NCBI GenBank assembly: GCA_016180135.1
Contig: JACPBV010000004.1
Coordinates: 26,868-90,867 of the forward strand
Reading direction: 5' to 3'
Length of the DNA: 64,000 nt
Source of the DNA: Candidatus Woesearchaeota archaeon
GTDB lineage: Archaea; Nanobdellota; Nanobdellia; Woesearchaeales; JACPBV01
Shown here: positions 4,271 through 62,603 of the stretch, piece by piece
How the letters are laid out: every line of letters starts with the position of its first letter
Numbering within the stretch: the first letter of the stretch is position 1
Program-made: the position numbers and the translations under genes
Notes under the pieces: model-generated
The model's input: only the letters and a program-made list of their open reading frames with translations
What the model was told of the DNA's origin: nothing
Database searches by the model: none

Positions 4271-6202
4271 ATGAGCATTTTCACAATCTTGCTATTCTTC
4301 CTCTACACCTACGGCCTAGGCTTTTCCATAACCTTCTTCTTCAAAAACGCAGAAAACTTCTTCGAAAGGCACATCATGAGGGTAGGGATCGGCCTTGCAG
4401 TGCTCCCCTTTCTCCTCGTCGTCCTGGACATTTTCAGAATTCCCCTCGACTGGAAGCTGGTTTTAGGCCTTTCCTTAGCCATCCCCATCTACCGCCTTCT
4501 GAAGGGCAGAAGGGGCATACCATCTAGCCTCAGTCTTCCGCAGCTTAAGGTTACCAGGTCCGGGCTTAACGCTCTTATTATTTTTATAATCTTCGTCATC
4601 ACCTTCTATATGTATTCCTCAGGCGCATTCAGCTACGCTTACCTCGAGGATGATGACCCCTGGGCGCATGCCGTCGGCGTAAAGTATGTGGCGATGGAAA
4701 AAAATTTTGATGACCCTGAAAACAACCTCTTTTACATTAAGACGTATCCTCCGGGATATGACGGCCTGCTCGGCATCCTCCACCAGACTTCCCCATCATT
4801 GCTGTGGACGATGAAGTTCTTTAATGCGCTTATCATCTCTTTAGGCATTTTCTTCTTCTATTATTTCGCAAAAAATTTCATGCAGAGCGAAAGGAAAGCC
4901 CTTTATGCCGCACTTGCCCTTGCCATGCTTCCTTCCTACTTGAGCCATTTCATCTGGGCGCATAGCCTGGTCATCACCCAATTCATCGTCTCCCTGTATT
5001 GCATTGAGATGCTCAGGCAGGAAAAGCGCTGGTCGCTCCCCATCGCATTAACGATAGCGGGAGCAGCTGTCGTCCAGCCTGACCAGCCGATTAAATTCCT
5101 GGTGATGTATATTATCTATTTCGCCATTAGCAGCATCGCAGAAAAAAAGTTCCAGTGGAGGCTTGCGCTTGCCGTCAAGTCCGGCTATCTTCTTTCGCTG
5201 GCATGGTGGGGCTTTAACGCCGGTAATTTCTTTAGCAGATTCTTCTCTTACAACCGTGCAAGGGCAGGGATAGATGCAGCAGCCTCATCATCATTATCAT
5301 CATCGTCATTATCCTCATCTTTGCTGGAAAAGCCGCTGCTTGAAAAAGCCTGGAGCGCCATTACCTCTACGTTCCCCCCCAACAGCGGAACAGCGACAAG
5401 AGCCTACACCTTCAATGATTTTTTTGTCGCAAAATCCCAGAACCTGATCAACAATCCTATCGGCATCGGCATTGCGCTTTCCCTTCTTGCGGTTATCGGA
5501 ATCCTCCTTATCCTTGCAGCCTGGAAAACGATGGGCAGGGAAAAAAAGCGATGGACTGCAATTGCTCTTTTTTGGCTTCTCTTCGCTTTTCTGGGAGTCA
5601 ACAGCCTCACCTTCCACCTTCCCGTCGGGCTTTTTGCATTCCGTTTTTGGATGCTGATGGCCATCCCCCTCTCGATCTTAGCGGGAGAGGGCATTGATTC
5701 AGTCGCCCGGTTGGGGAAGGGCATAGGGATTCCAAGGGCGCTCACTTCCATACTCCTCATCACTGCACTATTCTTCACAGGGGGGGTCCAGAAATATGCA
5801 GTAAACACCGCTCAATGGTATCCCGGCCAGTTCTGGACTTCAAACGAAGAGATTCAGGGCTATGTCTGGCTTACCACGCTTCCCGTAAACACCAAAGTTT
5901 TCTCATACTCTAACGACGAACAGGTCATCGGGATGGACAAGTTCAGCTGCCAGTGGTGCAGCGAAGTTGTTGAATTCAGAAAAGGCCTGCTGGAAAAGAA
6001 TATCTCAGAAGCCTATCCCTGGCTGAAGCAGCAAAACTACGAGTATGTGATGGTAGACGGGATGACGGTCAAAAACTTTCAGGCGCAGTATGGCAATGCT
6101 ACAGCGCAGCTGGTGAACCAAAAGATAAGCGAAATTGCCTCATCAGGAAAATTCCAGCCGGCATTCCAGAATCAGGGCGTGGTAGTCTTTAAGGTCATTT
6201 AG
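4271..6202 (+). CDS. polytopic membrane protein, GT-C-fold glycosyltransferase-like (ArnT/PMT/STT3-like), with a soluble C-terminal domain
   Basis: There are more than 10 predicted TM segments. An acidic first-loop motif YLEDDDPWAHAVGVKY resembles the GT-C catalytic loop. No WWDYG motif is present. A Ser/Leu microsatellite stretch (SSSLSSSSLSSS) is also present. Confidence 0.5.
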   Translation: MSIFTILLFFLYTYGLGFSITFFFKNAENFFERHIMRVGIGLAVLPFLLVVLDIFRIPLDWKLVLGLSLAIPIYRLLKGRRGIPSSLSLPQLKVTRSGLNALIIFIIFVITFYMYSSGAFSYAYLEDDDPWAHAVGVKYVAMEKNFDDPENNLFYIKTYPPGYDGLLGILHQTSPSLLWTMKFFNALIISLGIFFFYYFAKNFMQSERKALYAALALAMLPSYLSHFIWAHSLVITQFIVSLYCIEMLRQEKRWSLPIALTIAGAAVVQPDQPIKFLVMYIIYFAISSIAEKKFQWRLALAVKSGYLLSLAWWGFNAGNFFSRFFSYNRARAGIDAAASSSLSSSSLSSSLLEKPLLEKAWSAITSTFPPNSGTATRAYTFNDFFVAKSQNLINNPIGIGIALSLLAVIGILLILAAWKTMGREKKRWTAIALFWLLFAFLGVNSLTFHLPVGLFAFRFWMLMAIPLSILAGEGIDSVARLGKGIGIPRALTSILLITALFFTGGVQKYAVNTAQWYPGQFWTSNEEIQGYVWLTTLPVNTKVFSYSNDEQVIGMDKFSCQWCSEVVEFRKGLLEKNISEAYPWLKQQNYEYVMVDGMTVKNFQAQYGNATAQLVNQKISEIASSGKFQPAFQNQGVVVFKVI

Positions 6203-6330
6203 GAAAAGATTTTAGAGTTGGGTGTTTGTCAAATCACGGGAAATCCCCCCTCCCCCCTTTAGGCGGGGACGAGGTCACGATGGGTATACCTTTCTCGTTG
6301 GGCATTATCTTTTTTAGGGCTGTAGAAATA

Positions 6331-7761
6331 TCATCGAGGGAAAAAACTCTTCAGGAGCTCCCTTTCTTCTTTATGGATCCCCCCTAATGATGCTAAAGCG
6401 ATGCCGTAGACGAGGACTGCAAGGGGGACAAGGACAGCAATAGGCAGGAAATCAAGCCGCACGATGGCTATCCCCATGATGGCTGCTGAAAGGATTGGCT
6501 TGTAGCTTAGCCTGATGAGGTCCAGCCTGTAGCCGTGCTTCTGTGCGGAAAGGTAGAGCAGGATGAAGCTCAGCGCCTGCGAGATTACTGTCGCAAAAGC
6601 CGACCCCAGATAGCTTAAGGGCGGAATCAGTGCGAGATTCAGGATCACATTTGCTATTGAGGAAACGATGATAGCTTTGGTGAATGCCTGCTGCTGGTTG
6701 ATCGAGCTCAGAAGGTAGCCTAAGATGAAGTTGACAAACAGGAAGATGAAGGATAACGAAAGGATCTGCAGGACAATCCCTGATTCAGTGAACTGATGCT
6801 TGTAGAAAAACAGGATAAACCGCTGGGCAAGCAGGAATGTTCCGACGGAGATGGGGGCAGATGCAGCAACCATATAGTAAAACGATTTTTCGTAAAGCTT
6901 CATCAGCTCTTTTTTTGCGTTGAAATGATGGAACCGTGACATCGCAGGCACCGTCGCATTGATCACCGCAACAGGGATGAAGGAAATGCCGGACACGAGT
7001 GCAGAGCCTGCGCTGAACCATCCTGTTGCCTGATAGCTCTTGAGCCACGTCAGCATGACTTTATCGGTTTGCTGATACATCACCTCAAAGACCCGTGCTG
7101 CCCAGAACGGCAGGGAATGCATTGCCATAGATTTCCAGAGCTGGATATCTGCGCTGATGGCGGGCCTGAAGAAAAATTTCCAGCAAAGGAATCCGCTGAA
7201 GAGCAGAGTGATAATCTTTCCAAGGATCAGCCCCGCTAATAATCCTAATATCCCATACCCCCATGCAAGCGCAGCTGCGCCAAACACTAAGGCAGTAATC
7301 CTGTCAACAGCCATGGTGGAGACAGTAAACTCATTCCGCTCAAATGCCTTGAACACTACTCCGAGCATGAGGTGCATCTGGGAGATGAGCTCATGCGCCA
7401 TCACCAGGAAGATGACCCACAGGATTTCCTGGGTCTTTGGCCAAAGATAGCCCAGCGCAGCAGCTGCAGCATAAGTCCCAAGGATAAGCGCTGCCCTCAA
7501 TCCAAGCGCATTGCCGATAAGCTGTTTTGCCCTGTCTTTGTGCCTCGAGATCTCCCTGAGGAGGTAGGCCATGATCCCTGCGTGGGAAAAGACAACAAAA
7601 AGCCCGATGAAAGCGAACGCAAACGCATACTTCCCGTAGCCCACATCACCAAGATAGCGGGTGATGAGGATAATAAGGATAAAGGAAAGTATCTTGTTGA
7701 TTATTTCTGCCGTAAAAAGATATCCGGTGTTTTTTGCGATGATCTTTGCGGTGGACATCAT
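6331..7761 (-). CDS. MOP-superfamily oligosaccharide/polysaccharide flippase (Wzx-like)
   Basis: 476 aa with about 12-14 TM segments. The N-terminus IAKNTGYLFTAEIINKILSFILIILITRYLGDVGYGKYAF is typical of polysaccharide biosynthesis (Wzx) proteins. Confidence 0.8.
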   Translation of the reverse strand: MMSTAKIIAKNTGYLFTAEIINKILSFILIILITRYLGDVGYGKYAFAFAFIGLFVVFSHAGIMAYLLREISRHKDRAKQLIGNALGLRAALILGTYAAAAALGYLWPKTQEILWVIFLVMAHELISQMHLMLGVVFKAFERNEFTVSTMAVDRITALVFGAAALAWGYGILGLLAGLILGKIITLLFSGFLCWKFFFRPAISADIQLWKSMAMHSLPFWAARVFEVMYQQTDKVMLTWLKSYQATGWFSAGSALVSGISFIPVAVINATVPAMSRFHHFNAKKELMKLYEKSFYYMVAASAPISVGTFLLAQRFILFFYKHQFTESGIVLQILSLSFIFLFVNFILGYLLSSINQQQAFTKAIIVSSIANVILNLALIPPLSYLGSAFATVISQALSFILLYLSAQKHGYRLDLIRLSYKPILSAAIMGIAIVRLDFLPIAVLVPLAVLVYGIALASLGGIHKEERELLKSFFPR

Positions 7762-7845: not shown

Positions 7846-7905
7846 CTATGAATCACTTTTCCGCAGGAGCGGCTCTGCCGCCTAAGGTCAAAACTCAATT
7901 GACAT
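7846..7905. mobile_element. solo 5-prime-arm fragment of the family-B hairpin element
   Basis: tatgaat...ccgcaggagcggctctgccgcctaaggtcaaaactcaattgac matches the B 5-prime arm (ccggcaagagcggctctgccatcctaaggtcaaaactcaact). No matching 3-prime arm follows. Confidence 0.5.
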
Positions 7906-7970: not shown

Positions 7971-9884
7971 ATGTGCGGCATAGCTGGAATTTACAGCCTC
8001 AGCGGAAAGGAGGCACCCTCAGCAAGAGTCATCACAGAGATGGCAGACTCCATGGCTCATCGTGGCCCTGAAGATTCGGGGATCTATCTCGGCAAAGGGA
8101 TAGCATTTGGCCACAGGAGGCTTCGCATCCTTGATTTGTCAGAGAAAGGAAAGCAGCCGATGATGGACAGGGAAAAGGAGATAGTGATAACCTTCAACGG
8201 CGAAATTTACAATTTCCGGGATATCAGGGATGAGCTTATCAGCCTGGGATATTCTTTCTCTTCAGCGTCTGACACTGAAGTGATCCTCAGCGCTTACCGG
8301 CAGTGGGGGATTGAATGCATCCAAAGGTTCAACGGCATGTTTGCCTTTGGACTTTACGACGGGAGGAAGCAGAAGCTTTTTCTTGTGAGGGACAGGCTTG
8401 GGAAAAAGCCGCTTTACTATTCCATTGTGGATGGCGCTCTTATATTCGCTTCCGAAATTAAGGCGATTTTGAGATATCCTCATTTTGTTGCTGAGCCAAA
8501 TTGGAAAGCTATCTCTTCATATCTTTCTTTTAGGTATGTCCTCGGGAAAGATTCTTTCTTTAGCCGCATAGTAAAAGTCCTTCCCGGCCATTATCTTGAG
8601 ATCTCCGGCGGTAAGATTGATGAAAAAGAATATTGGGATATTCCGCTGGTTGCGAAAAAGGGTGATAGGGGCATAGCCTATTACAAAGCATCAATTAGAG
8701 AAAAATTAACCAGGGCAGTGAAGCTGAGGATGGTCAGTGATGTCCCTCTGGGGGCTTACCTGAGCGGCGGCCTTGATTCCAGCATAATTGTTGCCCTGAT
8801 GGCGCAGCTTACAGGAAAAGTGAGGACGTATTCTGTCGCATTTGACGTTGAGGGATATGATGAGCTGCAGTATGCTAAGCTCGTCGCAGAAAAGTTTAGC
8901 ACGGAGCACACGGAAATCAGGCTGAAGGCAGGAGACTATATGGGGGCGATGAAAGAGCTTATCAGATTCAAAGATGAGCCTCTTGCGGTCCCGAATGAAG
9001 TTCCCATCTACCTCATGTCAAAAGTGCTGAAAAAAGACATCACTGTTGTCCTCTCAGGGGAAGGCTCTGACGAGCTTTTCTATGGGTATGGGAGGCTTTT
9101 CAGGAGCCCCTTTGACTATGCCCGGCTGAAGATGCTTCCTGCAGGCCTGAGGAATTTATTTCTGAAATCTCTCGGAAAGAAATATGGCAGTAAATCATTC
9201 TCTTCTGAGATGGAGCATTTCCTTCACCTCTACAGCTATTTCCCGAATGGGGAGAAAAACAGCCTGTTCAATCCTTTTATGAAGTCGCTGTGCCGTGACG
9301 ATGAGGGCCTTCATGCGCTTTTCCGGAAATATTTTGACAGGGCGGAAAATCTAAATTATTATGACAAGATCAGCTATGTGTTTGAGAAGATCCACCTCGT
9401 CGGCCTTCTCGGAAGGCTGGATAATGCGACGATGGCTGCCGCTGTGGAGGCAAGGGCACCCTTTGTTGACCATGAGCTTGTCGAGTTTATGTTTAATGTC
9501 CCAAAAAAATACAAGCTGCACTGGAAGTCTGCTTTTTCTTTCTTCAGAGGTTTGCTCAAAAATTCTGACGAGATCAGCGAAAACCTGGATATCACCAAAT
9601 GGATATTAAGGGAAGCATTTAAGGATGATGTCCCCGAAAAGATTATCAGCAGGAAAAAACAGGGATTTCCTGTCCCGCTTGACGCATGGTTCAAGGGAAA
9701 ATTCATCAGCGACGCAAAGAAGTATCTTCTTGGCCCCGAAGCAAGGATAAGAAAGATTATTGACCAGCAGAATCTTGAATCATGGATAAACAGAAACCTT
9801 AATAACAGCGCAGGCACCTCCTTCGGTCAGAAAGTGTGGATGCTGCTGAATGTCGAAATATGGTTAAGGGAGTATTTTGGATGA
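7971..9884 (+). CDS. asnB: asparagine synthase (glutamine-hydrolysing) family amidotransferase
   Basis: The N-terminal MCGIAGIY has the catalytic Cys2. The PP-loop SGGLDSS is present. Length (637 aa) and C-terminal region are typical of AsnB. Confidence 0.9.
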   Translation: MCGIAGIYSLSGKEAPSARVITEMADSMAHRGPEDSGIYLGKGIAFGHRRLRILDLSEKGKQPMMDREKEIVITFNGEIYNFRDIRDELISLGYSFSSASDTEVILSAYRQWGIECIQRFNGMFAFGLYDGRKQKLFLVRDRLGKKPLYYSIVDGALIFASEIKAILRYPHFVAEPNWKAISSYLSFRYVLGKDSFFSRIVKVLPGHYLEISGGKIDEKEYWDIPLVAKKGDRGIAYYKASIREKLTRAVKLRMVSDVPLGAYLSGGLDSSIIVALMAQLTGKVRTYSVAFDVEGYDELQYAKLVAEKFSTEHTEIRLKAGDYMGAMKELIRFKDEPLAVPNEVPIYLMSKVLKKDITVVLSGEGSDELFYGYGRLFRSPFDYARLKMLPAGLRNLFLKSLGKKYGSKSFSSEMEHFLHLYSYFPNGEKNSLFNPFMKSLCRDDEGLHALFRKYFDRAENLNYYDKISYVFEKIHLVGLLGRLDNATMAAAVEARAPFVDHELVEFMFNVPKKYKLHWKSAFSFFRGLLKNSDEISENLDITKWILREAFKDDVPEKIISRKKQGFPVPLDAWFKGKFISDAKKYLLGPEARIRKIIDQQNLESWINRNLNNSAGTSFGQKVWMLLNVEIWLREYFG

Positions 9885-14961: not shown

Positions 14962-15657
14962 CTAATCAATTCCCCGGGCATGCTTATATCCATAATAAGC
15001 GATATATCCTACCCAGACAAGGTTGAAGTAAACGGCATAAAACGCAAGGAAGATGTCAAGCCTCTGGGCAGCAGCTGAAATGCTCAGGATATGCAGCTGG
15101 ATGTCATAATCAAGAAAAAAGAGAAACATCCACACCAGCGGGTTTTTCTTAAGGTTGTCTTTCACCATATCTGTCTCGCTGTGCCCGGGATAATAGATAT
15201 CTGACGTCAGAGAGAGAAAGTGGTAGAGGTATTTCCCAAAGATATAGCTCAGCGTAAGATACAGTATTGCAGGATTCCCCGAAGTCTGAAAAAGCGAAAC
15301 CCCTATGGCGATGGCCCAGATATTGACAACAATCCTGTCTCCTGCCCGGTCAATCCATCCGCCAAAGTTTGACTTCATGCTTGTCAGCTTCGACAGCATC
15401 CCATCGGCCACATCAAGCGCATGGAACCATTGCACAAGGATGGCAAAAATGATAAGGGCAGCAGGCGTATGGGCACTGAGTAATATCCAGCCGGCAGCTG
15501 CGCTGGAGATGATATTGAACAGAGTGACCATATTAGGAGTGATTGGCGTCTTTGCAAGAATCCCTGCAAGAAACTCCCCGAATGGCTCGACGTAATATCG
15601 TGCCAGCGGATTCCACACAACCCTCCTGCCGCCGATGACTTTATCCATAGCCCCCAA
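14962..15657 (-). CDS. CDP-alcohol phosphatidyltransferase family membrane protein
   Basis: DVADGMLSKLTSMKSNFGGWIDRAGDRI fits D-x2-D-G-x(n)-G-x3-D-x3-D, with Ser-Lys in place of the usual Ala-Arg. About 6 TM segments. Confidence 0.7.
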   Translation of the reverse strand: MGAMDKVIGGRRVVWNPLARYYVEPFGEFLAGILAKTPITPNMVTLFNIISSAAAGWILLSAHTPAALIIFAILVQWFHALDVADGMLSKLTSMKSNFGGWIDRAGDRIVVNIWAIAIGVSLFQTSGNPAILYLTLSYIFGKYLYHFLSLTSDIYYPGHSETDMVKDNLKKNPLVWMFLFFLDYDIQLHILSISAAAQRLDIFLAFYAVYFNLVWVGYIAYYGYKHARGID

Positions 15658-15690
15658 GATTTAGGGGCGGTTTAAAAGCTTTATCCTCTG

Positions 15691-15864
15691 GTATGTATTA
15701 AGCTCCGGCAAGAGCGGCTCTGCCATCCTAAGGTCAAAACTCAACTATCAAACTAAATCGCGCTCGTCGTGGGGGGATGCCCCCTCGGGGACACAGAGCC
15801 CTTGCCAAATCAATTGGGAGTTTTGAAGAGGGCAGAGCCGCTCCAAGGGGAGCTTAATACATAC
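15691..15864. mobile_element. family-B long-hairpin MITE-like element, copy B1 (174 nt)
   Basis: The 16-bp terminal inverted repeat is gtatgtattaagctcc / ggagcttaatacatac. Inner perfect stems are gagcggctctgcc/ggcagagccgctc (13 bp) and tcaaaactc/gagttttga (9 bp). The GC-rich core is ggggggatgccccctcggggacacagagcc. The flanking 8-mers match only imperfectly (atcctctg vs cttctgca). Confidence 0.7.
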
Positions 15865-15937
15865 CTTCTGCAGGCCTCCCCGAATTAAGTTCAGATATAC
15901 AATAAACCCGCCTCAAATCTCTATCTCACCCAAACGC

Positions 15938-17926
15938 TCAGCAGTTCTTCAGGGCAGCAGCATCAATATCCAGAAAGGAGTATTTTTTCTTATCAGTAAA
16001 TTCACCTAACGTGCAGATCATCGTATCATGCGGAGCGCCTTTCTTCAGCAATAACCAGCTCCCCCGGACTTGAACAACACCATACCGTTCATCATTAAAC
16101 AGCGCATTCAGCTCAGAGGAGCTTAATTTCTGCCCATTCCTCTTCGGATCAGCCAGTGCCCTGCTTAAATCAACGATGATATACTCCGGCATTGGCCATT
16201 CTATAATTGGCTTTTTCTCACCAACTCTTCCATCCCCAGCATCACTAACCTTTCCATCAGTAAATCTTTCCCTGGAACCCCGCAGGAAATCCGCAAGGTT
16301 GTAGGCAAACTTCCTTTCGCTGAGATGCGGCAGCGCCCAATTGGGGGCGGCGACAGCAGCATTCTTCGGAATCAGGGAAATGACCTCTCTCCCGTTGAGT
16401 GCATAAGGTGAAGAAGCTGAAAAATCCCTGAGGTCATAGAGCAGCGCAAATGGCCCGTAGGAAGCGAAAGCGAAGATGCTGGCAAAAAACACAAACACGC
16501 ACCAGGAAAGGATTGTGCGGGAATTTTTGACAATCTTTCTCTTCATGAGGAAACCTAATCCCGATGCCGCTGCCAGATAGAGGAAAGGCACGATGACAAC
16601 AGGGTGATGATAGAGGATCTGCTGGAAACCAAGTGGGCTGTAAAGCAGGATCAAAGCAAACTCCGAAATCACCAAAAACAGCACAGGCAGCCCGAAAAGG
16701 GTCAAGACCCCAAACGGAAAGAACAGCAGCGACAGAAAGCCTATCTTCTCGAGCGTAAAGACATAAGGCAGGGTGATATCGGGCCTGAACAATGCGGTCA
16801 GGGCAGCCTCTCCGATGGTTTTTCCGAAGATGGGATTTACTTCAAGGAAGAAATTGGTGTGCTGCCCGAACAGCGGCATGATAAGATAAAAGTTTGCAAG
16901 AAACCACATAATCCCTGCAAGTAAAACCACGCTCCCCCAAAGCCTTTTCCGGTATTTCACAAAAGCAAATATCCCGAACGGAACCATCAGCAGGGGCAGC
17001 GTCTCTTTTACTGTTCCCGAGGCAGCAAGAAGCGCCGCCGTAATGCCAAATCTTCCCTTTTCCATAAAATAGAAAGCAAACAGCACTAATGGCACAGCAA
17101 GCGTATCTGGATGAAAATCGAAGAGATAGGTAAAATTTAACGTCGGAAAAAACAGGTAGCCCGCAGCAAAAAGCAGGCTCCAGAACTCTCTTTTCAGCAT
17201 CCTTCTTAAGATCAGGTAGAGGGGGATTGCGCTGAAGCTTAATACTGCCCCCTGCACGATAAGAAGAACCACAGGACTTTTGAAGGCAAGATACAAAGGC
17301 GCAAATATCCATAGTATCCAGTTGAGGTGCATGCTCAGCAGCGGAAACATCATCGTTGAATAGTATTGGCTGAGCTGGGTGTATCCAAAAACAACTTGGT
17401 CATAGACTCCAAGGTCATAGCCTGTCGAGAAAAAGGAATAATGCTTCATGATCGCAAGGGTTGTGAAGACAGTAAAATGAATTCCGGCAAGGATAAATAC
17501 CCATAGCAGCGAAGTTTTTACCTCAAGTTTTTTTGGAAAGAAATAAACCTTGAGTAACAGGAAGCAGGCGAAGGAAAATGCGAAGGGCAGGGTTGATTGG
17601 AGCAGCGAAAACGGCTCCAGCGATGGCGGCAACGGAAGAGTATGCCTCAGCGGAAAAAGCCCTAAGATTGCAAAAGGCAGGAACGTCAGTGCATCGTTGA
17701 AAAGAAATTTCCTGAACTGCTTCCCAAATGCTCTGGCGGTAAGGGCGCTATAAGCCGCCCACACCCCAAGGAACAAAACTGCCGAAGTGATGGAAAAAGA
17801 GAAGATGCCTGTCCAGGGGGCAGCTGAAATGCTTTTGAAGAAATAATCTGCCGAAAATATCCCTGCAAGTATCCCCAGTGCGCTGACCCACAGCCCTGCA
17901 AAAAGAATCGTATGGCGCTCATCCAC
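15938..17926 (-). CDS. DUF2079-like polytopic membrane protein (GT-C-like, putative glycosyltransferase)
   Basis: 662 aa with many TM segments. The loop motif FSTGYDLGVYDQVVFGY resembles the DUF2079 signature (D-L-G-x-F-D-Q). Confidence 0.55.
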   Translation of the reverse strand: MDERHTILFAGLWVSALGILAGIFSADYFFKSISAAPWTGIFSFSITSAVLFLGVWAAYSALTARAFGKQFRKFLFNDALTFLPFAILGLFPLRHTLPLPPSLEPFSLLQSTLPFAFSFACFLLLKVYFFPKKLEVKTSLLWVFILAGIHFTVFTTLAIMKHYSFFSTGYDLGVYDQVVFGYTQLSQYYSTMMFPLLSMHLNWILWIFAPLYLAFKSPVVLLIVQGAVLSFSAIPLYLILRRMLKREFWSLLFAAGYLFFPTLNFTYLFDFHPDTLAVPLVLFAFYFMEKGRFGITAALLAASGTVKETLPLLMVPFGIFAFVKYRKRLWGSVVLLAGIMWFLANFYLIMPLFGQHTNFFLEVNPIFGKTIGEAALTALFRPDITLPYVFTLEKIGFLSLLFFPFGVLTLFGLPVLFLVISEFALILLYSPLGFQQILYHHPVVIVPFLYLAAASGLGFLMKRKIVKNSRTILSWCVFVFFASIFAFASYGPFALLYDLRDFSASSPYALNGREVISLIPKNAAVAAPNWALPHLSERKFAYNLADFLRGSRERFTDGKVSDAGDGRVGEKKPIIEWPMPEYIIVDLSRALADPKRNGQKLSSSELNALFNDERYGVVQVRGSWLLLKKGAPHDTMICTLGEFTDKKKYSFLDIDAAALKNC

Positions 17927-19318: not shown

Positions 19319-20235
19319 GCCTTCTTCCCCCGCAGTGCAAGCGTAAGCCCTGCATCGATGCTGATGGTCGGCTCCCACCTCAATTCTTTTTTTGCCTTTG
19401 CGATGTCTGCCCTGCAGTCCATAACTTCATTTTTTCTCCGCTCGCCGGAAAATGTCATCTTCACAGGTTTCCCATGCAGTTTTGCAAGCTTCTCAGCTAT
19501 CTCCCTGACGCTGTAGCTTTTTCCCGAACCGATATTGAACACTCCCTCCCCCGGAAACGCCATCGCCCGGAGGTATGCCTCAACCGCATCTTCAACAAAA
19601 GTGAAATCTCTTTTTGGCTCAGGGTCCCCAAGCTCAACAGCCGCCCCCCCTGTCCCTGCCTCCGCCCCCAGCTGGCTTATGATCTTTCCGATAAGAAAAT
19701 CTTTTCCCTGCCCCGGCCCGTAGATATTGAACATTCTCAGGATGATCGCTTTCATCCCAAAATCTTTTTGGTAGGCTTTGATGAATTCCTCTGCAAGGTA
19801 TTTGGAATGCGCATAGGGGTTAAACGGGTTTAAAGGGTGCTTCTCGTCAACAGGAAGGTATTGGGGCGCCCCATACAGGTAAGAGCTTGCGAAAATAAGC
19901 CTTGCGCCGGTGATCCTGCACAGCTCGCACACATTAAGTGTTCCGAAGCTGTTCACTTCAAAATATTCCCGTGGCTTTTCCCGGGAAGCTCCCACCGCAG
20001 CAAGCCCTGCCAGATGGAAAACATGGCTGATGCCGTTAGTGCTCTTTGTTCCGTTAACTCCCTTTGTTCCGCTGGCTTCTGCAGCAATCCCCTTCAGGTC
20101 TTCCCAACGTGCCACAGACTTTCCTTCTGTGTGGTCAAATTTCAGGACAGGTATCCCCTTGCGCTCCAAAGCCCGGACTAGCCATTTGCCTACAAACCCG
20201 CTGCTTCCCGTGACTAAAACTGATGCTTTTTTCAT
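19315..20235 (-). CDS. NAD-dependent nucleotide-sugar epimerase/dehydratase (SDR family)
   Basis: VLVTGSSGFVGKWL is the Rossmann GxxGxxG motif. YAHSKYLAE is the YxxxK motif. Confidence 0.85.
   Translation of the reverse strand: MKKASVLVTGSSGFVGKWLVRALERKGIPVLKFDHTEGKSVARWEDLKGIAAEASGTKGVNGTKSTNGISHVFHLAGLAAVGASREKPREYFEVNSFGTLNVCELCRITGARLIFASSYLYGAPQYLPVDEKHPLNPFNPYAHSKYLAEEFIKAYQKDFGMKAIILRMFNIYGPGQGKDFLIGKIISQLGAEAGTGGAAVELGDPEPKRDFTFVEDAVEAYLRAMAFPGEGVFNIGSGKSYSVREIAEKLAKLHGKPVKMTFSGERRKNEVMDCRADIAKAKKELRWEPTISIDAGLTLALRGKKA
20023..20066 (-). repeat. in-frame imperfect 18-nt tandem repeat inside the epimerase gene (GTKGVN/GTKSTN)
   Basis: ccgttagtgctctttgtt / ccgttaactccctttgtt / ccgctggc.... 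These encode ...SGTKGVNGTKSTNG..., an insertion not expected in the SDR fold. Confidence 0.5.
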
Positions 20236-20948
20236 GGCAGAAATCTTGAAGGGTTTTTGCTGAACTCTTCAACAGCGATCGCATAATCATCCGGCCTCCC
20301 GATATCCAGCCAGTATCCTTCGAACGGATAGGCTATCACTTTCTCCTTCCTGCTGATGAGGATTTTTATCAGGTCAGGAAAATCCAGCTTCCCCTGCTGT
20401 TCGACAGCTTCTCTGATGATTCCGATGACCTTAGGCTCCATCACATTGATGCCGATGCTGACGGTGTATTGGAGCGTCGGCTTTTCAGTGTAGCCTCTGA
20501 CCTCCTGCCCGTTTCCCACCTCGATGATCCCATAATCGATAGGAACTTTTCTTTGGTGGACAGCGATAGTCACTGCAGCCTTATGCTTCTTGTGATAGCT
20601 CATCAGGTCTTTATAGTTCAGGTCCGTCAGGATGTCCCCATTCATCACCAGGAACGCCTCAGTAAGCCCCTTTATCTGCCCCAATGGCCCCGATGTCCCT
20701 AAAGGCTTGTCTTCCTTTGAATATTTAATCGGCACCCCGTGCTTCTGCCCGTCGCCAAAATAAGCCATGAACAGCTCAGAGAGATAACCGACGGCAAGAG
20801 TGATATCGGTGAAGCCGTTTTTCTTCAGCTGCGCAATGACCACTTCGATGATTGCCCTGTCCCCGATGGGCATCAATGGCTTAGGGATGACAGTGGTATA
20901 AGGCTTCAGCCGAGTCCCTTTCCCGCCCGCTAAGATTGCCGCTTTCAT
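20232..20948 (-). CDS. sugar-1-phosphate nucleotidyltransferase
   Basis: MKAAILAGGKGTRLKPYTTVIPKPLMPIG is the canonical signature (RfbA/RfbF/GlmU-N type). Confidence 0.85.
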   Translation of the reverse strand: MKAAILAGGKGTRLKPYTTVIPKPLMPIGDRAIIEVVIAQLKKNGFTDITLAVGYLSELFMAYFGDGQKHGVPIKYSKEDKPLGTSGPLGQIKGLTEAFLVMNGDILTDLNYKDLMSYHKKHKAAVTIAVHQRKVPIDYGIIEVGNGQEVRGYTEKPTLQYTVSIGINVMEPKVIGIIREAVEQQGKLDFPDLIKILISRKEKVIAYPFEGYWLDIGRPDDYAIAVEEFSKNPSRFLP

Positions 20949-21003
20949 AAGGAAAACCTGAGATGGGAAAAACTGAGAGTGTATTTAAAGATTTGTGTGT
21001 TTG

Positions 21004-21177
21004 GTATGAATTAAGCTCCGGCAAGAGCAGCTCTGCCATCCTAAAGTCAAAACTCCATCCAAAAAGACAGCCAGCCCGTTGCGGGGGGTTGTCCCTTACG
21101 GGGACGCAGGGCCATCGCCAGACTTATCGGGAGTTTTGAAGATGGCAGAGCCGCTCCGAGGGGAGCTTAATTTATAC
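21004..21177. mobile_element. family-B long-hairpin MITE-like element, copy B2 (174 nt)
   Basis: The inverted repeat is gtatgaattaagctcc / ggagcttaatttatac. The same 13-bp and 9-bp inner stems are present. The core is gcggggggttgtcccttacggggacgcagggcc. The flanking 8-mers tgtgtttg / ggtgtttg match 7 of 8. Confidence 0.75.
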
Positions 21178-21234
21178 GGTGTTTGAAGTGTTGAGAGCAG
21201 AACTTACGATATGGGCCTTTAGTTTACCTTAGAA

Positions 21235-22224
21235 CTATTCAAACCCCTTCCCGCCCTTCTGAAAAAAGTCCCAATACCACTGCACGGTCTTCTTCACGCC
21301 TTCCTTCCACCCGACAGCAGGCCTGTAGCCAAGAAGCTTCCTGGCCTTAGAAATGTCAGGGCATCTTCTCGAAACGCTTCCTGAAGGCGCTTTTTCAGAT
21401 GAATATCTCCCTTTAAACCCGACAACTGAGCCGATAAACCTCACAAGTTCATCGACGGTAATCTCCTCTTCAGCCCCGATATGGAATATCTCCCCGTCTC
21501 CCTTGCTGCTCTCCATCGCCAGGACAGTTCCCTGCACCGCATCATCCACATAGCAGAAGCTTCTCGTCTGCTCTCCGCCGATGATCGAAAAAGGATTTTC
21601 CTTCTCATAAAACCTTTTCACCACCTGGGGGATCACATGCTTGAACCCCATCCTTTCGCCGTAGACATTGTGGTATCTGGCCACAACAGGAATAAACCCA
21701 TACGTTTTTGCATAGGCAAACAATCCTGACTCTCCGAGCATCTTTGTGGCAGCATAGGTAAACCTTGGATGCCTGATGTCAGCGATGCACAGCGGCACTT
21801 CCTCATCCGTCGGCACTTTATAGCCAAACTTCTCGACGCTGCCGGCATAGCATTCGCTTGTTGACGAAAAAATCACTTTCCTGCATTGAGCAGTTTTCAG
21901 CCATTCCAGCAGGTTTACCATCAGCAGGGTATTGATCCTGATGATCTCAGCAGGCATCTTCTCCGTATAGCCGACGCCGACCACTGCAGCAAGCATATAT
22001 ACGCAGTCATAATGTTCGCCCAGCTTGGAAAATGCTTTTGCGTCGGTGCAGTCTGCCTTGACAATCTTCACCCCTCCCTTCTCCAGCGCCTTCAGCTCAT
22101 CATCCATCTTCCCCCTGAAGAAATTGTCAATGATCGTGACTGCATACCCTTTCTGCCCAGAAAGATGCTTCGCAAGGCGGTGGCCGATAAAACCAGCTCC
22201 GCCGATGATCAGTGCTTTTTTCAT
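21235..22224 (-). CDS. NAD-dependent nucleotide-sugar epimerase/dehydratase (SDR family)
   Basis: ALIIGGAGFIGHRLAKHL and YAATKMLGE (YxxxK) are present. A 4-nt overlap links it to the upstream dehydrogenase gene. Confidence 0.85.
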   Translation of the reverse strand: MKKALIIGGAGFIGHRLAKHLSGQKGYAVTIIDNFFRGKMDDELKALEKGGVKIVKADCTDAKAFSKLGEHYDCVYMLAAVVGVGYTEKMPAEIIRINTLLMVNLLEWLKTAQCRKVIFSSTSECYAGSVEKFGYKVPTDEEVPLCIADIRHPRFTYAATKMLGESGLFAYAKTYGFIPVVARYHNVYGERMGFKHVIPQVVKRFYEKENPFSIIGGEQTRSFCYVDDAVQGTVLAMESSKGDGEIFHIGAEEEITVDELVRFIGSVVGFKGRYSSEKAPSGSVSRRCPDISKARKLLGYRPAVGWKEGVKKTVQWYWDFFQKGGKGFE

Positions 22225-23763: not shown

Positions 23764-23930
23764 GCGGCTCCGTTCAAAATATAGGTTAGCAGCCTAAAGT
23801 AAAAATCATTTGCCCTCTGAATCCAGCTGACAAGGGGGACGCCCCCAACGGGGAATGTCAGCAACTGAAAAATCACTTTGGGATTTTTAAGCTGCTAACC
23901 CGAGCGAAGCGAGATTTTGAACGGAGCCGC
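23764..23930. mobile_element. family-C long-hairpin MITE-like element (167 nt)
   Basis: Terminal inverted repeat gcggctccgttcaaaat / attttgaacggagccgc (17 bp). Inner stems are ggttagcagc/gctgctaacc and gctgaca/tgtcagc. The core is agggggacgcccccaacgggg. An 11-bp direct repeat gcaaaatcagc sits at 23755-23765 and 23929-23939. Confidence 0.7.
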
Positions 23931-24525: not shown

Positions 24526-24714
24526 GTTTGCTGACTCTCCTTTTGATAATCTATACTTACGGAAAAAAATAATTATACAATTGTTGTCCGTTCGTAATAA
24601 GCCAACGACAACTTTTTGTCTAAATATTTGCGTCGTTGGCTATATTATATGCTCAGGAATTATTCCGCAAAGTCTGAACCCTCTTTCAAATTCATCAAAT
24701 AAATTAGCGCTATA

Positions 24715-24829
24715 GAAAATTTCAACAACCTCGGCGAGGCGAGGCTGGGGGTCGCCCCATCGGGGTAGCCGAGCAGGGCAAATTTCCAGAGGAAATTTGA
24801 CCGTCGAGCCATGTGTTGTTGAAATTTTC
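24715..24829 (+). repeat. family-A structured repeat, copy A1 (115 nt)
   Basis: A 15-bp closing stem gaaaatttcaacaac / gttgttgaaattttc encloses ctcggc...gtcgag, a GC hairpin (ggctg-ggggtcgccccatcgggg-tagcc) and the hairpin caaatttcc-aga-ggaaatttg. Confidence 0.75.
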
Positions 24830-24858
24830 GCGCATTGCACCTCATAAGAGGTGTCTTT

Positions 24859-26823: not shown

Positions 26824-26853
26824 TGTTGAGTCAGCATCTCCCTGCGGGCGGTT

Positions 26854-27003
26854 AAATGCAAATATTCCACCAGTCTTTGACTGGTGGTTGACGCTCGATT
26901 AGACGTTGGGAATATTTGCCTTCTCAGAAATCCGACCCGAGCGACCGAAGGGAGCGAGCAATCCCCCCCGTCTGTGACGGGGGGTGGTCGGATTTCTTTT
27001 GAA
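26854..27003 (+). repeat. family-D two-domain structured repeat, copy D1 (~150 nt)
   Basis: Domain 1 is gcaaatattcc/ggaatatttgc enclosing ccaccagtc-ttt-gactggtgg. Domain 2 is agaaatccgacc/ggtcggatttct enclosing cgagcgaccgaagggagcgagc and ccccccgtc-tgt-gacgggggg. Confidence 0.7.
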
Positions 27004-27628: not shown

Positions 27629-27688
27629 GCTGCTGAAATTTCAGCAATGTTTAAAAAGGTTCCTCTATTCGAAGAATAAGGAAAAATC

Positions 27689-27987
27689 GTATGTATTAAG
27701 CTCCGGCAAGAGCGGCTCTGCCATCCTAATGTCAAAAACTGTTGTTTTTGAGCATGCTCAGAAATCGTAACTATTATAATAAGATATGACGATTTCTGAC
27801 AGGTCAAAACTCAACTGTCTAACTGAATCACGCTCGTAGTGGGGGGATGCCCCCTCGGGGACACAGAGCCCCTGCCAAATCAGTCAAGAGTTTTGAAAAC
27901 CCTAAGAAGCGAAGTTTCGTGGGTGCCAATAATGCGCAAGCATTATTAAGCATGGCAGAGGCGCTCCAAGGGGAGCTTAATACATAC
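27689..27987. mobile_element. family-B element, copy B3 (299 nt), carrying two nested insertions
   Basis: Same 16-bp inverted repeat and core as B1. Perfect 8-bp flanking duplication gaaaaatc (27681-27688 and 27988-27995). Relative to B1 there are extra segments of about 70 nt in the 5-prime arm and about 55 nt in the 3-prime arm. Confidence 0.8.
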
Positions 27988-28000
27988 GAAAAATCACAAA

Positions 28001-28990: not shown

Positions 28991-29078
28991 GTTCAATTCT
29001 AAACCTAATCTTATCATTTTAGGCTTCATCCCCTGACGTTAGGGAAATGAAGGCTAGCGCACAATAAACGTTTTTTTT

Positions 29079-29230
29079 GAAAATTTCAACAACATCGGCG
29101 AGGCGAGGGAGGGCCGCCCTCCGTCCGCAGACCGGAACGCTGGATTATCCCTCCGTCCGCAGACCGGAACGCTGGATTATCCCTCCGTCCGCAGACCGGA
29201 ACGCTTTTTTTTCCCTCCGTCCGTTTTCTC
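29079..29230 (+). repeat. family-A element, copy A3: 5-prime half only, followed by tandem expansion
   Basis: It starts gaaaatttcaacaacatcggcgaggcgaggg as other A copies do, then runs into 32-nt tandem units. No gttgttgaaattttc 3-prime arm is present. Confidence 0.6.
29117..29223 (+). repeat. perfect 32-nt tandem repeat (ccctccgtccgcagaccggaacgctggattat), 2 full units plus 24-nt and 11-nt partial units
   Basis: Units read directly at 29117-29148, 29149-29180 and 29181-29204, then T8, then ccctccgtccg. Confidence 0.9.
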
Positions 29231-32627: not shown

Positions 32628-32791
32628 GTATTTGTTTAGCATCCTAAGATCGAAACGCTTCTGGGCTTACCGTTGGGTCCGTCGCGGGGGCCGCCCTCCT
32701 TCCCGAAGGGACAGGAACGTTTTTCCACCCCTACGGGGACGCAGGACATCCATATCTCCCGTCGAGCGTTTCGAAGATGCTAAACAAATAC
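32628..32791. mobile_element. family-F long-hairpin MITE-like element (164 nt), related to family B
   Basis: 16-bp perfect inverted repeat gtatttgtttagcatc / gatgctaaacaaatac. Perfect 8-bp flanking duplication gtttcttc (32620-32627, 32792-32799). The core is cacccctacggggacgcagg. Confidence 0.8.
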
Positions 32792-38562: not shown

Positions 38563-38631
38563 GATACCCAAACAAGATACCTCAACAAGATACCCAAACA
38601 AGATACCTCAACAAGATACCCAAACAAGATA
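38563..38631 (+). repeat. 13-nt tandem array (gatacccaaacaa / gatacctcaacaa alternating, 5 units plus a partial) starting right after the ArsR stop codon
   Basis: Units read directly. The effective period is 26 nt, about 2.6 copies. Confidence 0.85.
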
Positions 38632-43065: not shown

Positions 43066-43184
43066 GAAAATCCCAACAACAAAGGGCTCGACGGTCAAAT
43101 TTTTCTCTGAGAAAAATTTGCCCTGCTCGGGCACCCCGATGGGGCGACCCCCGCCCTCGCCTCGCCGATGTTGTTGGGATTTTC
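43066..43184 (-). repeat. family-A structured repeat, copy A2 (119 nt, inverted orientation)
   Basis: The closing stem is gaaaatcccaacaac / gttgttgggattttc. It differs from other copies by three compensatory pairs. The inner modules are conserved in reverse complement. Confidence 0.75.
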
Positions 43185-43238
43185 CAAATGCAGTCTATTT
43201 TTTTCTTCGACGGAGCTTAATACCTGCATTTCAGGGTT

Positions 43239-45790: not shown

Positions 45791-45812
45791 AGGGGAGGTA
45801 TTTTTCCCAAAA

Positions 45813-45933
45813 GAAAATTTCAACAACATCGGCGAGGCGAGGGCGGGGGTTTGTCCCTTACGGGGTGCCCGAGCAGGGCAAAATTTCCACAGAGGAAATT
45901 TTGACCGTCGAGCCCTTTGTTGTTGAAATTTTC
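45813..45933 (+). repeat. family-A structured repeat, copy A4 (121 nt)
   Basis: Same closing stem as A1. The inner hairpins are gggcg-ggggtttgtcccttacgggg-tgccc and caaaatttcc-acaga-ggaaattttg. Confidence 0.75.
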
Positions 45934-46032
45934 GCACATTGCAACCTAAAACTGCAGTTATGGGGAAGTGCGTTGATTGGGGGACACAATAGGGATTTAC
46001 ATCAATCCCCTTTACAACACCATTCGAGTATT

Positions 46033-46180
46033 AAATGCAAATATTCCACCAGTCTCTGACTGGTGGTTGACTCTCGATTAGCCATTGGGAATATTTGCCT
46101 TCTCAGAAATCCGACCCGAGCGACCGAAGGGAGCGAGTAATCCCCCCGTCTGTGACGGGAGGTGGTCGGATTTCTTTTGA
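46033..46180 (+). repeat. family-D two-domain structured repeat, copy D2
   Basis: More than 90 percent identical by eye to D1 (26854-27003), with the same four stems. Confidence 0.7.
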
Positions 46181-46254
46181 ATAATTGCGGCAAATGTAGC
46201 ATAACTACTGCAATTATCTATATTTTTCTGATGTAGAAGTTTTATCCAATATCT

Positions 46255-47211: not shown

Positions 47212-47502
47212 TTGGCTTCAAAAGAAGGCATGGAGACGGATGTAGACAGAGTTCTTGCTAGTGTCAGGAAGAAGCGTTTGCTGATGGAAGTCGAGGTCAA
47301 GGGCCTCATCGAGAAGAAGGAAGAGGAAATTTCCATCCCCTTAAGCATTTTCTCGGAGAGATTAGGCATGCTTGAGTCTATCGTTCATTATCTCAGGGAT
47401 TCTCATGGGCTTTCTTTTACAGAGATTGCAGGGCATCTAAAGCGGGACTACAAGACAGTCTGGGCGACATATCAGCAGGCAAAGAAAAAGTATAAGCGAT
47501 GA
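47212..47502 (+). CDS. small helix-turn-helix protein (sigma-70 region-4 / LuxR-like HTH), translationally coupled to the giant ORF
   Basis: LGMLESIVHYLRDSHGLSFTEIAGHLKRDYKTVWATYQQAKKK looks like an HTH. The stop overlaps the giant-ORF ATG (ATGA at 47499-47502). The start may be TTG 47212 or ATG 47230. A TATA-like ctttataaac lies at 47181-47190. Confidence 0.55.
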   Translation: MASKEGMETDVDRVLASVRKKRLLMEVEVKGLIEKKEEEISIPLSIFSERLGMLESIVHYLRDSHGLSFTEIAGHLKRDYKTVWATYQQAKKKYKR

Positions 47503-62554: not shown

Positions 62555-62603
62555 AATGCAACCATTCCATCCGGTCTTTGACGGGGGGGTCGGATTATTT
62601 TGA
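62555..62603 (+). repeat. internally deleted family-D derivative (D4), abutting A5
   Basis: aatgcaaccattccatccggtctttgacgggggggtcggattattttga joins the D 5-prime end (aatgcaaatattccaccagtctttgac) directly to the D 3-prime end (gacggggggtggtcggatttcttttga). Confidence 0.5.

What the first reader, a model, noticed from the sequence alone, without database searches (positions are those of the whole stretch)
15683..15872. Family B: 174-nt near-perfect long-hairpin element, recurring between glycosylation genes
B1 folds on paper into one long hairpin.
- Stems: 16 bp (gtatgtattaagctcc / ggagcttaatacatac), 13 bp (gagcggctctgcc / ggcagagccgctc) and 9 bp (tcaaaactc / gagttttga).
- These surround a GC-rich core (ggggggatgccccctcggggacacagagcc).
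- Full copies occur at 21004-21177 and 27689-27987, and a solo arm at 7846-7905.
- All sit in spacers of an otherwise tightly packed gene array, where neighbouring genes often overlap by 4-8 nt.
- No transposase is present in the window, so these behave like non-autonomous (MITE-like) elements.

I cannot assign them to a named family.
Basis: seen in the sequence. Interest (0 to 1): 0.75.

Follow-up and report, generated by a model that had tools for sequence, protein, structure and literature searches.

The report
IS66-type MITE in a Woesearchaeota genome
The 174-nt hairpin repeat is a real miniature, non-coding transposon (a MITE) in a DPANN archaeon. It carries the same end sequences and leaves the same 8-bp insertion footprint as a 1.6-kb IS66-family insertion sequence. 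This makes it an ordinary kind of selfish DNA, although this particular family has not been named.

Summary
Three full copies (15691-15864, 21004-21177, 27689-27987) and one decayed left arm (7847-7905) lie in intergenic spacers of a glycosylation gene island. The contig belongs to a Candidatus Woesearchaeota MAG.

The MITE interpretation is also correct, and it can now be made specific:
- Fifteen more copies occur at unrelated loci in two other groundwater Woesearchaeota MAGs.
- Eight of the 15 copies with both flanks readable have a perfect 8-bp target-site duplication, and two more match 7/8.
- An orthologous methyltransferase/GDP-mannose-dehydratase spacer in a related MAG is empty (51 bp against 372 bp).
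- The 16-bp terminal repeat GTATG(T/A)ATTAAGCTCC also bounds 1.56-1.60-kb insertion sequences. Their 438-479-aa ORF is a Pfam DDE_Tnp_IS66 transposase, and the copies with called genes also carry a small DUF2080 ORF. One of these IS has a perfect 8-bp duplication, and one sits in another Woesearchaeota MAG.
- Two other MITE families (166 nt and 101 nt) share only these termini.

No Rfam family matches, and covariation is minimal.

Verdict: a new member of a known kind, of modest interest. One side observation is unexplained. The GC-rich tip and a 32-nt structured unit are shared by at least four MITE families with different ends.

The parts
15691..15864 (+). Copy B1, full 174-nt MITE. The terminal inverted repeats (TIRs) are 15691-15706 and 15849-15864 (GTATGTATTAAGCTCC, perfect). 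Its target-site duplication (TSD) has decayed.
   Evidence: It lies between the start of a CDP-alcohol phosphatidyltransferase gene (14962-15657, -) and the stop of a DUF2079 gene (15938-17926, -).
20996..21185 (+). Copy B2 (21004-21177, 174 nt) with its flanking 8-bp duplication, TGTGTTTG (20996-21003) and GGTGTTTG (21178-21185), matching 7/8. It belongs to the 'A-variant' of the termini (GTATGAATT...), and its core belongs to subfamily 2.
   Evidence: It lies between the start of an NTP_transferase gene (20232-20948, -) and the stop of an epimerase gene (21235-22224, -).
27681..27995 (+). Copy B3 (27689-27987, 299 nt) with a perfect 8-bp TSD, GAAAAATC, at 27681-27688 and 27988-27995. It contains two optional internal modules (about 27729-27800 and about 27898-27950).
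   Evidence: The orthologous spacer in L158 (JACPBU010000110.1) is 51 bp and lacks the element. The insertion sits between a conserved TTTAAAAA box and the ATG of the GDP-mannose dehydratase gene.
7847..7905 (+). Solo left arm, decayed and truncated (TATGAATCACTTTTCCGCAGGAGCGGCTCTGCCGCCTAAGGTCAAAACTCAATTGACA). There is no right arm.
   Evidence: (D10). It lies between a divergent flippase gene (6331-7761, -) and an Asn-synthase gene (7971-9884, +).
43212..43227 (-). Possible relic of a family B left terminus (GCAGGTATTAAGCTCC, 2 mismatches, followed by GTCGAAG). It abuts a family A element.
   Evidence: The surrounding sequence was read. This was not followed further and could be chance.
32628..32791 (+). 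Related family D MITE. It has different 16-bp termini (GTATTTGTTTAGCATC, perfect) and a perfect 8-bp TSD (GTTTCTTC). Its interior is homologous to the family B interior, and it carries one 32-nt tip unit.
   Evidence: A second copy in L014 2755-2919 has the TSD CATTTTTC.

Best explanation
Family B is a non-autonomous DNA transposon, a MITE of 174 nt in its basic form and up to 332 nt with optional internal modules. It encodes nothing.

**Proposed mechanism (inferred).** Its two 16-bp terminal inverted repeats, GTATG(T/A)ATTAAGCTCC, are the binding and cleavage sites of a DDE transposase supplied in trans. The supplier is a 1.56-1.60-kb IS66-family insertion sequence with a 438-479-aa TnpC-like transposase; the copies with called genes also carry a 44-46-aa DUF2080 ORF. 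Integration makes staggered cuts 8 bp apart, which leaves an 8-bp target-site duplication.

**Shown here:**
- the termini are identical to those of such IS;
- both the MITEs and an IS copy carry 8-bp duplications;
- copies are dispersed at unrelated intergenic sites in three Woesearchaeota genomes;
- one orthologous site is empty.

**Inferred, not shown:**
- that the transposase acts in trans on these ends;
- that a cognate IS is present in the same genome. MAGs usually lose IS copies, so its absence from the data is not informative.

**The long hairpin.** It follows from the palindromic build of the element: extended imperfect inverted arms of about 50 nt around a GC-rich tip. There is no evidence that it is an RNA under selection.

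**Likely side effects (untested).** Copies accumulate in spacers of the glycosylation island because insertions there are tolerated. B3 separates the GDP-mannose dehydratase ORF from its ancestral promoter box by 307 bp.
For: - **Dispersed copies.** A pattern scan found 15 further copies, all in two Woesearchaeota MAGs (JACPBU, JACPII), at loci with no synteny to the window or to each other.
- **TSDs.** Of 15 copies with both flanks, 8 have perfect 8/8 duplications (window B3, L001, L002, L003, L008, L010, L011, L015). Two have 7/8 (B2, L006), and two more match with a 1-nt offset (L009, L014). Chance per perfect match is 4^-8.
- **Empty site.** L158 carries the orthologous divergent gene pair. 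The methyltransferase is 72% identical at the protein level and the GDP-mannose dehydratase 78%. Downstream synteny (GT9, PMT_2, epimerase) is retained. Its spacer is 51 bp against 372 bp in the window, which equals 65 + 299 + 8. The flanking sequence GAAATTTCAGCAAyGTTTAAAAAGGTTCCT is conserved up to the insertion point.
- **Autonomous partner.** Inverted pairs of the same terminus bracket 1559-1600-bp units in L059 (the whole contig), L043, L048, L160 (Woesearchaeota MAG JACPJP) and L161 (which has a perfect TSD, GGATTATG). L163 and L164 carry the same 1593-bp kind of unit with more diverged termini (4 mismatches). The single long ORF of the three scanned (L059, L043, L048) hits Pfam DDE_Tnp_IS66 at E 3e-38 to 5e-42, and the precomputed annotation of the other loci lists the same family. 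It contains the CWAH motif. A DUF2080 ORF precedes it.
- **Matching terminal variants.** The T-variant and A-variant of terminal position 6 each occur on both ends of MITEs and on both ends of IS.
- **Other families with the same ends.** Independent MITE families of 166 nt (Hainich groundwater) and 101 nt share only these termini and also have perfect 8-bp TSDs.
- **Literature.** An ISBst12-group IS66 element with a 449-aa transposase makes an 8-bp direct repeat (PMC12898284).
- **Not a known RNA.** No Rfam match, even at E <= 1.
Against: - No IS66-type transposase was found in the window, in the 8-kb stretches around the other 15 copies, or demonstrably in the same MAG. The link to the transposase therefore rests on terminal identity and TSD length.
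- Only the outer 16-19 bp are shared with the IS, so descent from these IS by deletion is not shown.
- The 13-bp and 9-bp inner stems are invariant across subfamilies whose other internal sequence is only about 62% identical. Pure neutrality does not predict this.
- B1 has no recognisable TSD.
- Only one empty orthologous site was found. It lies in a different species rather than a sister strain.
Confidence: 0.9

Rival explanations
1. The element is a structured non-coding RNA gene or a cis-regulatory RNA (leader, terminator or stabiliser). It would be conserved for its fold and placed next to the promoters of glycosylation genes.
For: - The fold is very stable on both strands.
- All four window copies have the same orientation, with the left end 33-86 nt from the start of a minus-strand gene.
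- The inner stems are invariant, and 90.5% of cells are paired.
Against: - There is no Rfam hit.
- Only 3 of 58 pairs show a change on both sides. Two of those are in the termini and mirror the IS variants. The number of covarying pairs is no better than in shuffles.
- Both strands fold equally well, as expected for a DNA palindrome.
- Across 17 copies, orientation relative to neighbouring genes is mixed, with gene starts, gene stops and distances from -11 to 719 nt.
- The perfect TSDs and the empty orthologous site indicate insertion, not a conserved UTR.
Confidence: 0.04
2. The element is a MITE by origin but has been exapted. Copies would act as insulators or terminators between glycosylation operons, or as recombination sites that shuffle glycosylation cassettes. 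This would explain their clustering in the island.
For: - Three full copies and a relic lie within 20 kb of a glycosylation island, and none lies in the remaining 36 kb.
- B1 and B2 lie in direct orientation around a 5.1-kb, 5-gene cassette.
- B3 sits between a conserved promoter box and the GDP-mannose dehydratase ATG.
- Strong hairpins can block transcription or stabilise mRNA (general knowledge).
Against: - In the other two MAGs the neighbours are unrelated genes.
- B2 has its own 7/8 TSD, B1 has none recognisable, and the outer flanks of the B1-B2 pair do not match. The cassette therefore did not move as a composite unit.
- The longest T run in the element is T4, which is weak for archaeal termination (sequence).
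- The sample is too small to show enrichment.
Confidence: 0.12
3. The element is mobilised by a transposase of another family that also makes 8-bp duplications (for example ISL3, IS6, IS1595 or IS256). On this reading the terminal match to IS66-type IS is coincidental.
For: - Several IS families make 8-bp TSDs (own knowledge).
- No transposase was found in the same genome.
Against: - The 14-16-bp identity holds at both ends in at least 5 independent IS copies, and two more carry diverged versions of the same termini.
- The T and A terminal variants match between IS and MITEs.
- One IS lies in a Woesearchaeota MAG from the same aquifer study.

Confidence: 0.03

Closest known systems
IS66 family, ISBst12-like group (a single TnpC-type DDE transposase, without tnpA/tnpB), for example ISDge4 of Deinococcus geothermalis
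   Same: - The partner IS found here encode a 438-479-aa protein matching Pfam DDE_Tnp_IS66.
- They are about 1.6 kb long, have 14-16-bp terminal repeats beginning GTA, and make 8-bp duplications.
- ISDge4 has a 449-aa transposase, termini beginning GTGAC/GTAAC and an 8-bp direct repeat (PMC12898284).
   Different: - The element in the window is the non-coding passenger, not the IS.
- The archaeal IS carry an extra 44-46-aa DUF2080 ORF upstream of the transposase.
- The termini read GTATG rather than the GTAAGCG typical of the family (own knowledge).
- No ISfinder comparison was possible.
Archaeal MITEs (Sulfolobus SM1-SM4, Haloquadratum and Methanosarcina MITEs), and the 2024 census of prokaryotic MITEs
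   Same: - They are short, non-coding, bounded by TIRs, flanked by TSDs, intergenic and dependent on an IS transposase.
- The census reports that a Woesearchaeal genome is among the most MITE-dense archaeal genomes, at 105 MITEs per Mb (PMC11602168).
   Different: - There is no sequence relationship to the named families (own knowledge; not testable here).
- The census did not characterise families or their partner IS, and its sequence files are not held.
- I found no paper linking IS66-type IS to MITEs in DPANN archaea.
Bacterial long-hairpin MITEs (Neisseria Correia elements, pneumococcal RUP, enterobacterial ERIC/IRU)
   Same: They are 100-200-nt elements that are almost wholly self-complementary, lie in intergenic spacers and can end up in transcripts. 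This is the same general architecture.
   Different: - They have different hosts, termini and TSDs. Correia and RUP duplicate TA.
- Their partner transposases are different or unknown.
(own knowledge)

Membership tests
MITE (miniature inverted-repeat transposable element) | Short and without coding capacity | tested here: met
   Copies are 174-332 nt. tblastn with the cognate transposases finds nothing in them.
MITE (miniature inverted-repeat transposable element) | Terminal inverted repeats | tested here: met
   The 16-bp termini are perfect in B1 and B3 and have 1 mismatch in B2. Terminal helix 1 is 94% paired over 16 copies.
MITE (miniature inverted-repeat transposable element) | Target-site duplication of fixed length | tested here: met
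   The TSD is 8 bp. Of 15 copies, 8 are perfect and 2 match 7/8.
MITE (miniature inverted-repeat transposable element) | Many copies at unrelated loci | tested here: met
   There are 3 full copies plus 1 relic in the window, at least 10 in JACPBU and at least 5 in JACPII. The loci share no synteny.
MITE (miniature inverted-repeat transposable element) | Presence/absence at orthologous sites | tested here: met
   The B3 site is empty in L158. This is one site only, in a different species.
MITE (miniature inverted-repeat transposable element) | Autonomous element with the same termini in the same genome | not testable with these tools
   IS with the same termini were found in metagenome contigs and in other DPANN MAGs. 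The MAGs that carry family B could not be scanned as whole genomes.
IS66 family (as the mobilising partner) | DDE transposase of the TnpC type (Pfam DDE_Tnp_IS66) | tested here: met
   E-values are 3e-38 to 5e-42 for three IS scanned here. The precomputed Pfam annotation lists the same family for the transposases of five further loci.
IS66 family (as the mobilising partner) | 8-bp target duplication | tested here: met
   The IS in L161 is flanked by GGATTATG on both sides. The MITEs show the same length.
IS66 family (as the mobilising partner) | Accessory tnpA and tnpB genes of canonical IS66 | tested here: not met
   Only a 44-46-aa DUF2080 ORF precedes the transposase. The organisation is ISBst12-like rather than canonical IS66.
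IS66 family (as the mobilising partner) | Transposase acts on the MITE ends | not testable with these tools
   This needs a biochemical or genetic assay.
Any Rfam RNA family | Covariance-model match | tested here: not met
   At gathering thresholds the only hit in the window is Archaea_SRP at 62939-63211. The element gave no hit at E <= 1.
REP/BIME-type repeats (RAYT-mobilised palindromes) | 20-40-nt palindromes without TSDs, associated with a Y1 (RAYT) transposase | tested here: not met
   The element is 174 nt and has TIRs and 8-bp TSDs. No RAYT-like gene was seen in the Pfam scans.

The most novel reading that the evidence does not exclude
The GC-rich tip of the hairpin, G5-6 N3-5 C3-5 N2-4 G4, may not belong to family B at all. 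It could be a separate module specific to this lineage.

What was observed:
- The same tip, in the same two sequence variants, sits at the centre of at least four MITE families with unrelated termini (A, B, C and D).
- In all four families the tip is the docking site of a 32-nt unit: CCCTCC, then a 5-bp stem whose sequence varies between copies while pairing is kept, then CGGAACGC.
- That unit is present in 0 to 3 tandem copies.

Two readings fit this. One is a micro-element that targets hairpin loops, a parasite of MITEs. The other is a functional cargo exchanged between MITE families by recombination.
Probability: 0.25. Interest if true: 0.6.

Novelty: new member of a known kind. Interest (0 to 1): 0.33.

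Why it matters
MITEs and IS66-family elements are well known, so the finding does not change any concept. Its value is practical:
- It names a repeat family that breaks DPANN assemblies. Logan contigs of this strain end inside the copies.
- It ties that repeat family to a specific transposase type.
- It shows recent transposition in a small Woesearchaeota genome, inside a cell-surface glycosylation island.
- One insertion (B3) displaces a gene from its promoter, which can be tested with metatranscriptomes.

The layered sharing of core modules among MITE families with different ends is the only part that might teach something new about how MITE families arise.

Tried and rejected
- **Paralogous flanks.** I tested whether the repeat was copied along with duplicated genes. 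The flanking genes belong to different Pfam families, so this is rejected.
- **Rfam and tRNA.** Both were negative for the element.
- **Viral contigs.** The scan of the terminus gave only single 16-nt matches with no further similarity, consistent with chance.
- **Second 'empty site' for B2.** In L158 an NTP_transferase and an epimerase are adjacent, but they are only about 25% identical to the window genes. They are not orthologous, so I rejected this site.
- **L157.** This contig holds the closest GDP-mannose dehydratase homologue, but it ends in a tandem repeat just upstream of the gene, so it is uninformative.
- **Logan contigs.** Contigs carrying identical proteins are the same strain and break inside the MITE, so they offer no empty site.
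- **Composite transposon (B1 + B2 moving the 5-kb cassette).** Rejected, because the outer flanks do not match and B2 has its own TSD.
- **Locating the IS in the same MAGs.** The listing of cluster members gave no accessions. Four look-ups of NCBI-sourced transposases led to other MAGs.
- **MITE census supplement.** The sequence files are not held.
- **Covariation.** The test found too little variation to argue for or against a selected structure.

Full report
**1. The observation**

The sequence at 15691-15864 is a 174-nt element. It has perfect 16-bp termini (GTATGTATTAAGCTCC / GGAGCTTAATACATAC), then a 13-bp stem and a 9-bp stem, around a GC-rich centre.

It folds into one long hairpin on either strand. 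The z-scores are -6.7 and -8.5, and none of 200 shuffles folded as well.

The repeat finder, MAFFT and BLAST recover three more pieces:
- a copy at 21004-21177;
- a copy at 27689-27987, which is 299 nt because of two extra internal modules;
- a decayed left arm at 7847-7905.

The terminus occurs in three inverted pairs, against 0.09 matches expected by chance.

The window is archaeal, since it carries an SRP RNA at 62939-63211. Its GDP-mannose dehydratase is identical to an NCBI protein of a Candidatus Woesearchaeota MAG, on a 117,852-bp contig.

The region from 0.3 to 34 kb is a glycosylation island with overlapping genes. The genes flanking the copies are not paralogues.

**2. What it is**

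An exact-pattern scan of one genome per species found 15 more copies. All lie in two other groundwater Woesearchaeota MAGs, with 10 in JACPBU and 5 in JACPII. They sit at loci with no similarity to the window or to one another outside the element.

When the ends are lined up, 15 copies have both flanks readable:

| TSD state | Copies |
|---|---|
| Perfect 8-bp direct duplication | 8 (window B3 = GAAAAATC, L001, L002, L003, L008, L010, L011, L015) |
| 7/8 match | 2 (window B2, L006) |
| Match with a one-base offset | 2 (L009, L014) |
| None recognisable | 3 (B1, plus L004 and L012, which lie at contig-end junctions) |

All copies are intergenic or clip an ORF end by at most 11 nt. Their orientation relative to neighbouring genes is mixed.

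**3. Empty site**

The closest non-identical GDP-mannose dehydratase (78% identity) lies on JACPBU010000110.1 (locus L158). It is divergently paired with a methyltransferase that is 72% identical to the window's. Downstream come the same GT9, PMT_2-like and epimerase genes.

The spacer there is 51 bp. In the window it is 372 bp, which equals 65 + 299 (MITE) + 8 (TSD). The sequence GAAATTTCAGCAAyGTTTAAAAAGGTTCCT is conserved in both, right up to the insertion point.

A second apparent empty site, for B2, was rejected because the genes are only about 25% identical.

**4. The autonomous partner**

I scanned metagenome contigs for the 16-nt terminus. It gave inverted pairs at two kinds of spacing.

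*Pairs 101 or 166-167 nt apart.* These are two further MITE families. They share only the outer 16-19 bp with family B, and each has perfect 8-bp TSDs.

*Pairs 1559-1600 bp apart.* These enclose one long ORF of 438-479 aa. It hits Pfam DDE_Tnp_IS66 at E 3e-38 to 5e-42 and contains the CWAH motif.

Homologues of this transposase are numerous and often sit on contigs of about 1.6 kb. The named ones come from Woesearchaeota and Nanoarchaeota. Look-ups of four of them showed the same organisation each time: a 44-46-aa DUF2080 ORF, then the transposase.

- In L160 (Woesearchaeota MAG JACPJP) the IS is 1561 bp. Its ends are GTATGAATTAAGCTCT ... GGAGCTTAATTCATAC, the same A-variant as B2, L010 and L014.
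- In L161 the IS is 1577 bp and is flanked by a perfect GGATTATG duplication.

An ISBst12-group IS66 element is reported with a 449-aa transposase and an 8-bp direct repeat (PMC12898284).

Family B is therefore the MITE counterpart of an IS66-family IS that lacks tnpA/tnpB. Only the termini are shared, so it is not a simple deletion derivative of the IS copies found. No such transposase is present in the window or near the other copies. Whether one exists elsewhere in the same genomes could not be tested.

**5. RNA alternative**

No Rfam family matches, even at E <= 1. On an alignment of 16 copies, 90.5% of cells pair, but almost entirely through invariance:
- Only 3 of 58 pairs change on both sides.
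- Two of those are in the termini and mirror the IS variants.
- The number of covarying pairs is no higher than in shuffles.

Together with the TSDs, the empty site and the mixed orientation, this makes a selected RNA unlikely.

One feature remains unexplained. The 13-bp and 9-bp inner stems are invariant between subfamilies whose remaining interior is only about 62% identical. This may reflect subterminal transposase contacts or a requirement for the hairpin.

**6. Possible consequences (inferred)**

In L158 a central TTTAAAAA box lies 20-22 nt from both start codons. That arrangement looks like a bidirectional promoter for leaderless mRNAs. In the window, B3 is inserted between this box and the dehydratase ATG.

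The gene must therefore either be read through a leader of about 320 nt that contains the hairpin, or use a new start site. The TTAATACA within the right terminus lies at -24 to -17 from the ATG. That is somewhat too close for a standard archaeal TATA box. This can be tested with transcriptomes.

**7. Comparison and novelty**

Archaeal MITEs and IS66-family IS are established. A 2024 census already lists a Woesearchaeal genome among the most MITE-dense archaeal genomes (PMC11602168). I found no description of this family, or of IS66-linked MITEs in DPANN archaea. It is a new member of a known kind.

**8. Side observation**

The window holds at least three other hairpin MITE-like families:

| Family | Window coordinates | Notes |
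|---|---|---|
| A | 24704-24850, 29068-29230, 43066-43188, 45802-45943, 62598-62854 | |
| C | 23764-23930 | |
| D | 32628-32791 | Perfect 16-bp termini and perfect 8-bp TSD |

- All of them carry the same central tip motif as family B, in the same two variants.
- Family D also shares the wider interior of family B while having different ends.
- In the other genomes and in families A, C and D, the tip contains 1-3 tandem copies of a 32-nt unit. The unit's 5-bp stem varies between copies while keeping its pairing.
- At the orthologous GMD-GT9 spacer, the window has a family A copy and L158 has a family C copy. Both carry such units, in opposite orientation.

I cannot yet say how unrelated termini come to surround the same core.

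Noticed in passing
window 24704-24850, 29068-29230, 43066-43188 (-), 45802-45943, 62598-62854: Family A is a second hairpin repeat, with ends GAAAATTTCAACAAC...GTTGTTGAAATTTTC. Its centre carries the same GGGGG-N3-CCCC-N3-GGGG tip as family B, including the TTGTCCCTTACGGGG variant seen in B2. The copy at 29068 is truncated. The copy at 62598 carries extra modules.
   Followed up: partly
window 29117-29223, 62648-62710, 32694-32730; L011 2861-2960; L002, L003, L009, L010, L013, L015 tips; L158 about 6257-6335: A 32-nt unit sits in the hairpin tips of four different MITE families, as 1-3.3 tandem copies. It reads CCCTCC, a 5-bp stem with a 3-5-nt loop, CGGAACGC, and then GGATTAT (if another unit follows) or a T-run. 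The stem sequence differs between copies while pairing is kept (GTGCC/GGCAC, GTTGC/GCAAC, TCCC/GGGA). There is no Rfam match.
   Followed up: partly
window 23764-23930; L158 about 6170-6420: Family C is a hairpin MITE with ends GCGGCTCCGTTCAAAAT... and a 7-9-bp duplication (CAAAATCAG). In L158, a family C copy occupies the same GMD-GT9 spacer that holds a family A copy in the window.
   Followed up: partly
window 32628-32791; L014 2755-2919: Family D is a MITE with perfect 16-bp termini (GTATTTGTTTAGCATC) and perfect 8-bp TSDs (GTTTCTTC in the window, CATTTTTC in L014). Its interior is homologous to that of family B, but its outer arms are different.
   Followed up: partly
L008 tip (family B) and window 62760-62812 (family A): A module of about 50 nt, CCTCCGAGCGGTAGCGAGCGAGGCAC-A6-hairpin-T6-CGTG, is shared between copies of two different families.
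   Followed up: no
L160 2370-2504, L161 273-410, L162 1663-1803, L163 1513-1653: In all four looked-up DPANN IS66-type IS, a 44-46-aa ORF matching Pfam DUF2080 lies immediately upstream of the transposase and overlaps it. This suggests a conserved accessory protein.
   Followed up: no
window 47499-62465 (+): There is a single ORF of 4988 aa with several internal tandem repeats (for example 49394-49474, 49812-49918, 60625-60745). It may be a giant surface protein of the kind reported in DPANN genomes. It was not analysed.
   Followed up: no
window 1040-1156, 38563-38631: There are short-period tandem repeats: 12/36-nt GGAGAGTGTAAA units inside the glycosyltransferase ORF 281-2002, and a 13/26-nt array at 38563-38631.
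   Followed up: no
window 26852-27003 and 46031-46181: A repeat of about 150 nt occurs in two copies at 96-98% identity. It contains a CCCCCCGTCTGTGACGGGGGG hairpin. A similar sequence follows a family B copy in L012.
   Followed up: no
window 27640-27690 versus L158 5088-5138: A conserved central TTTAAAAA box lies 20-22 nt from both divergent start codons. It looks like a bidirectional promoter for leaderless transcripts.
   Followed up: partly
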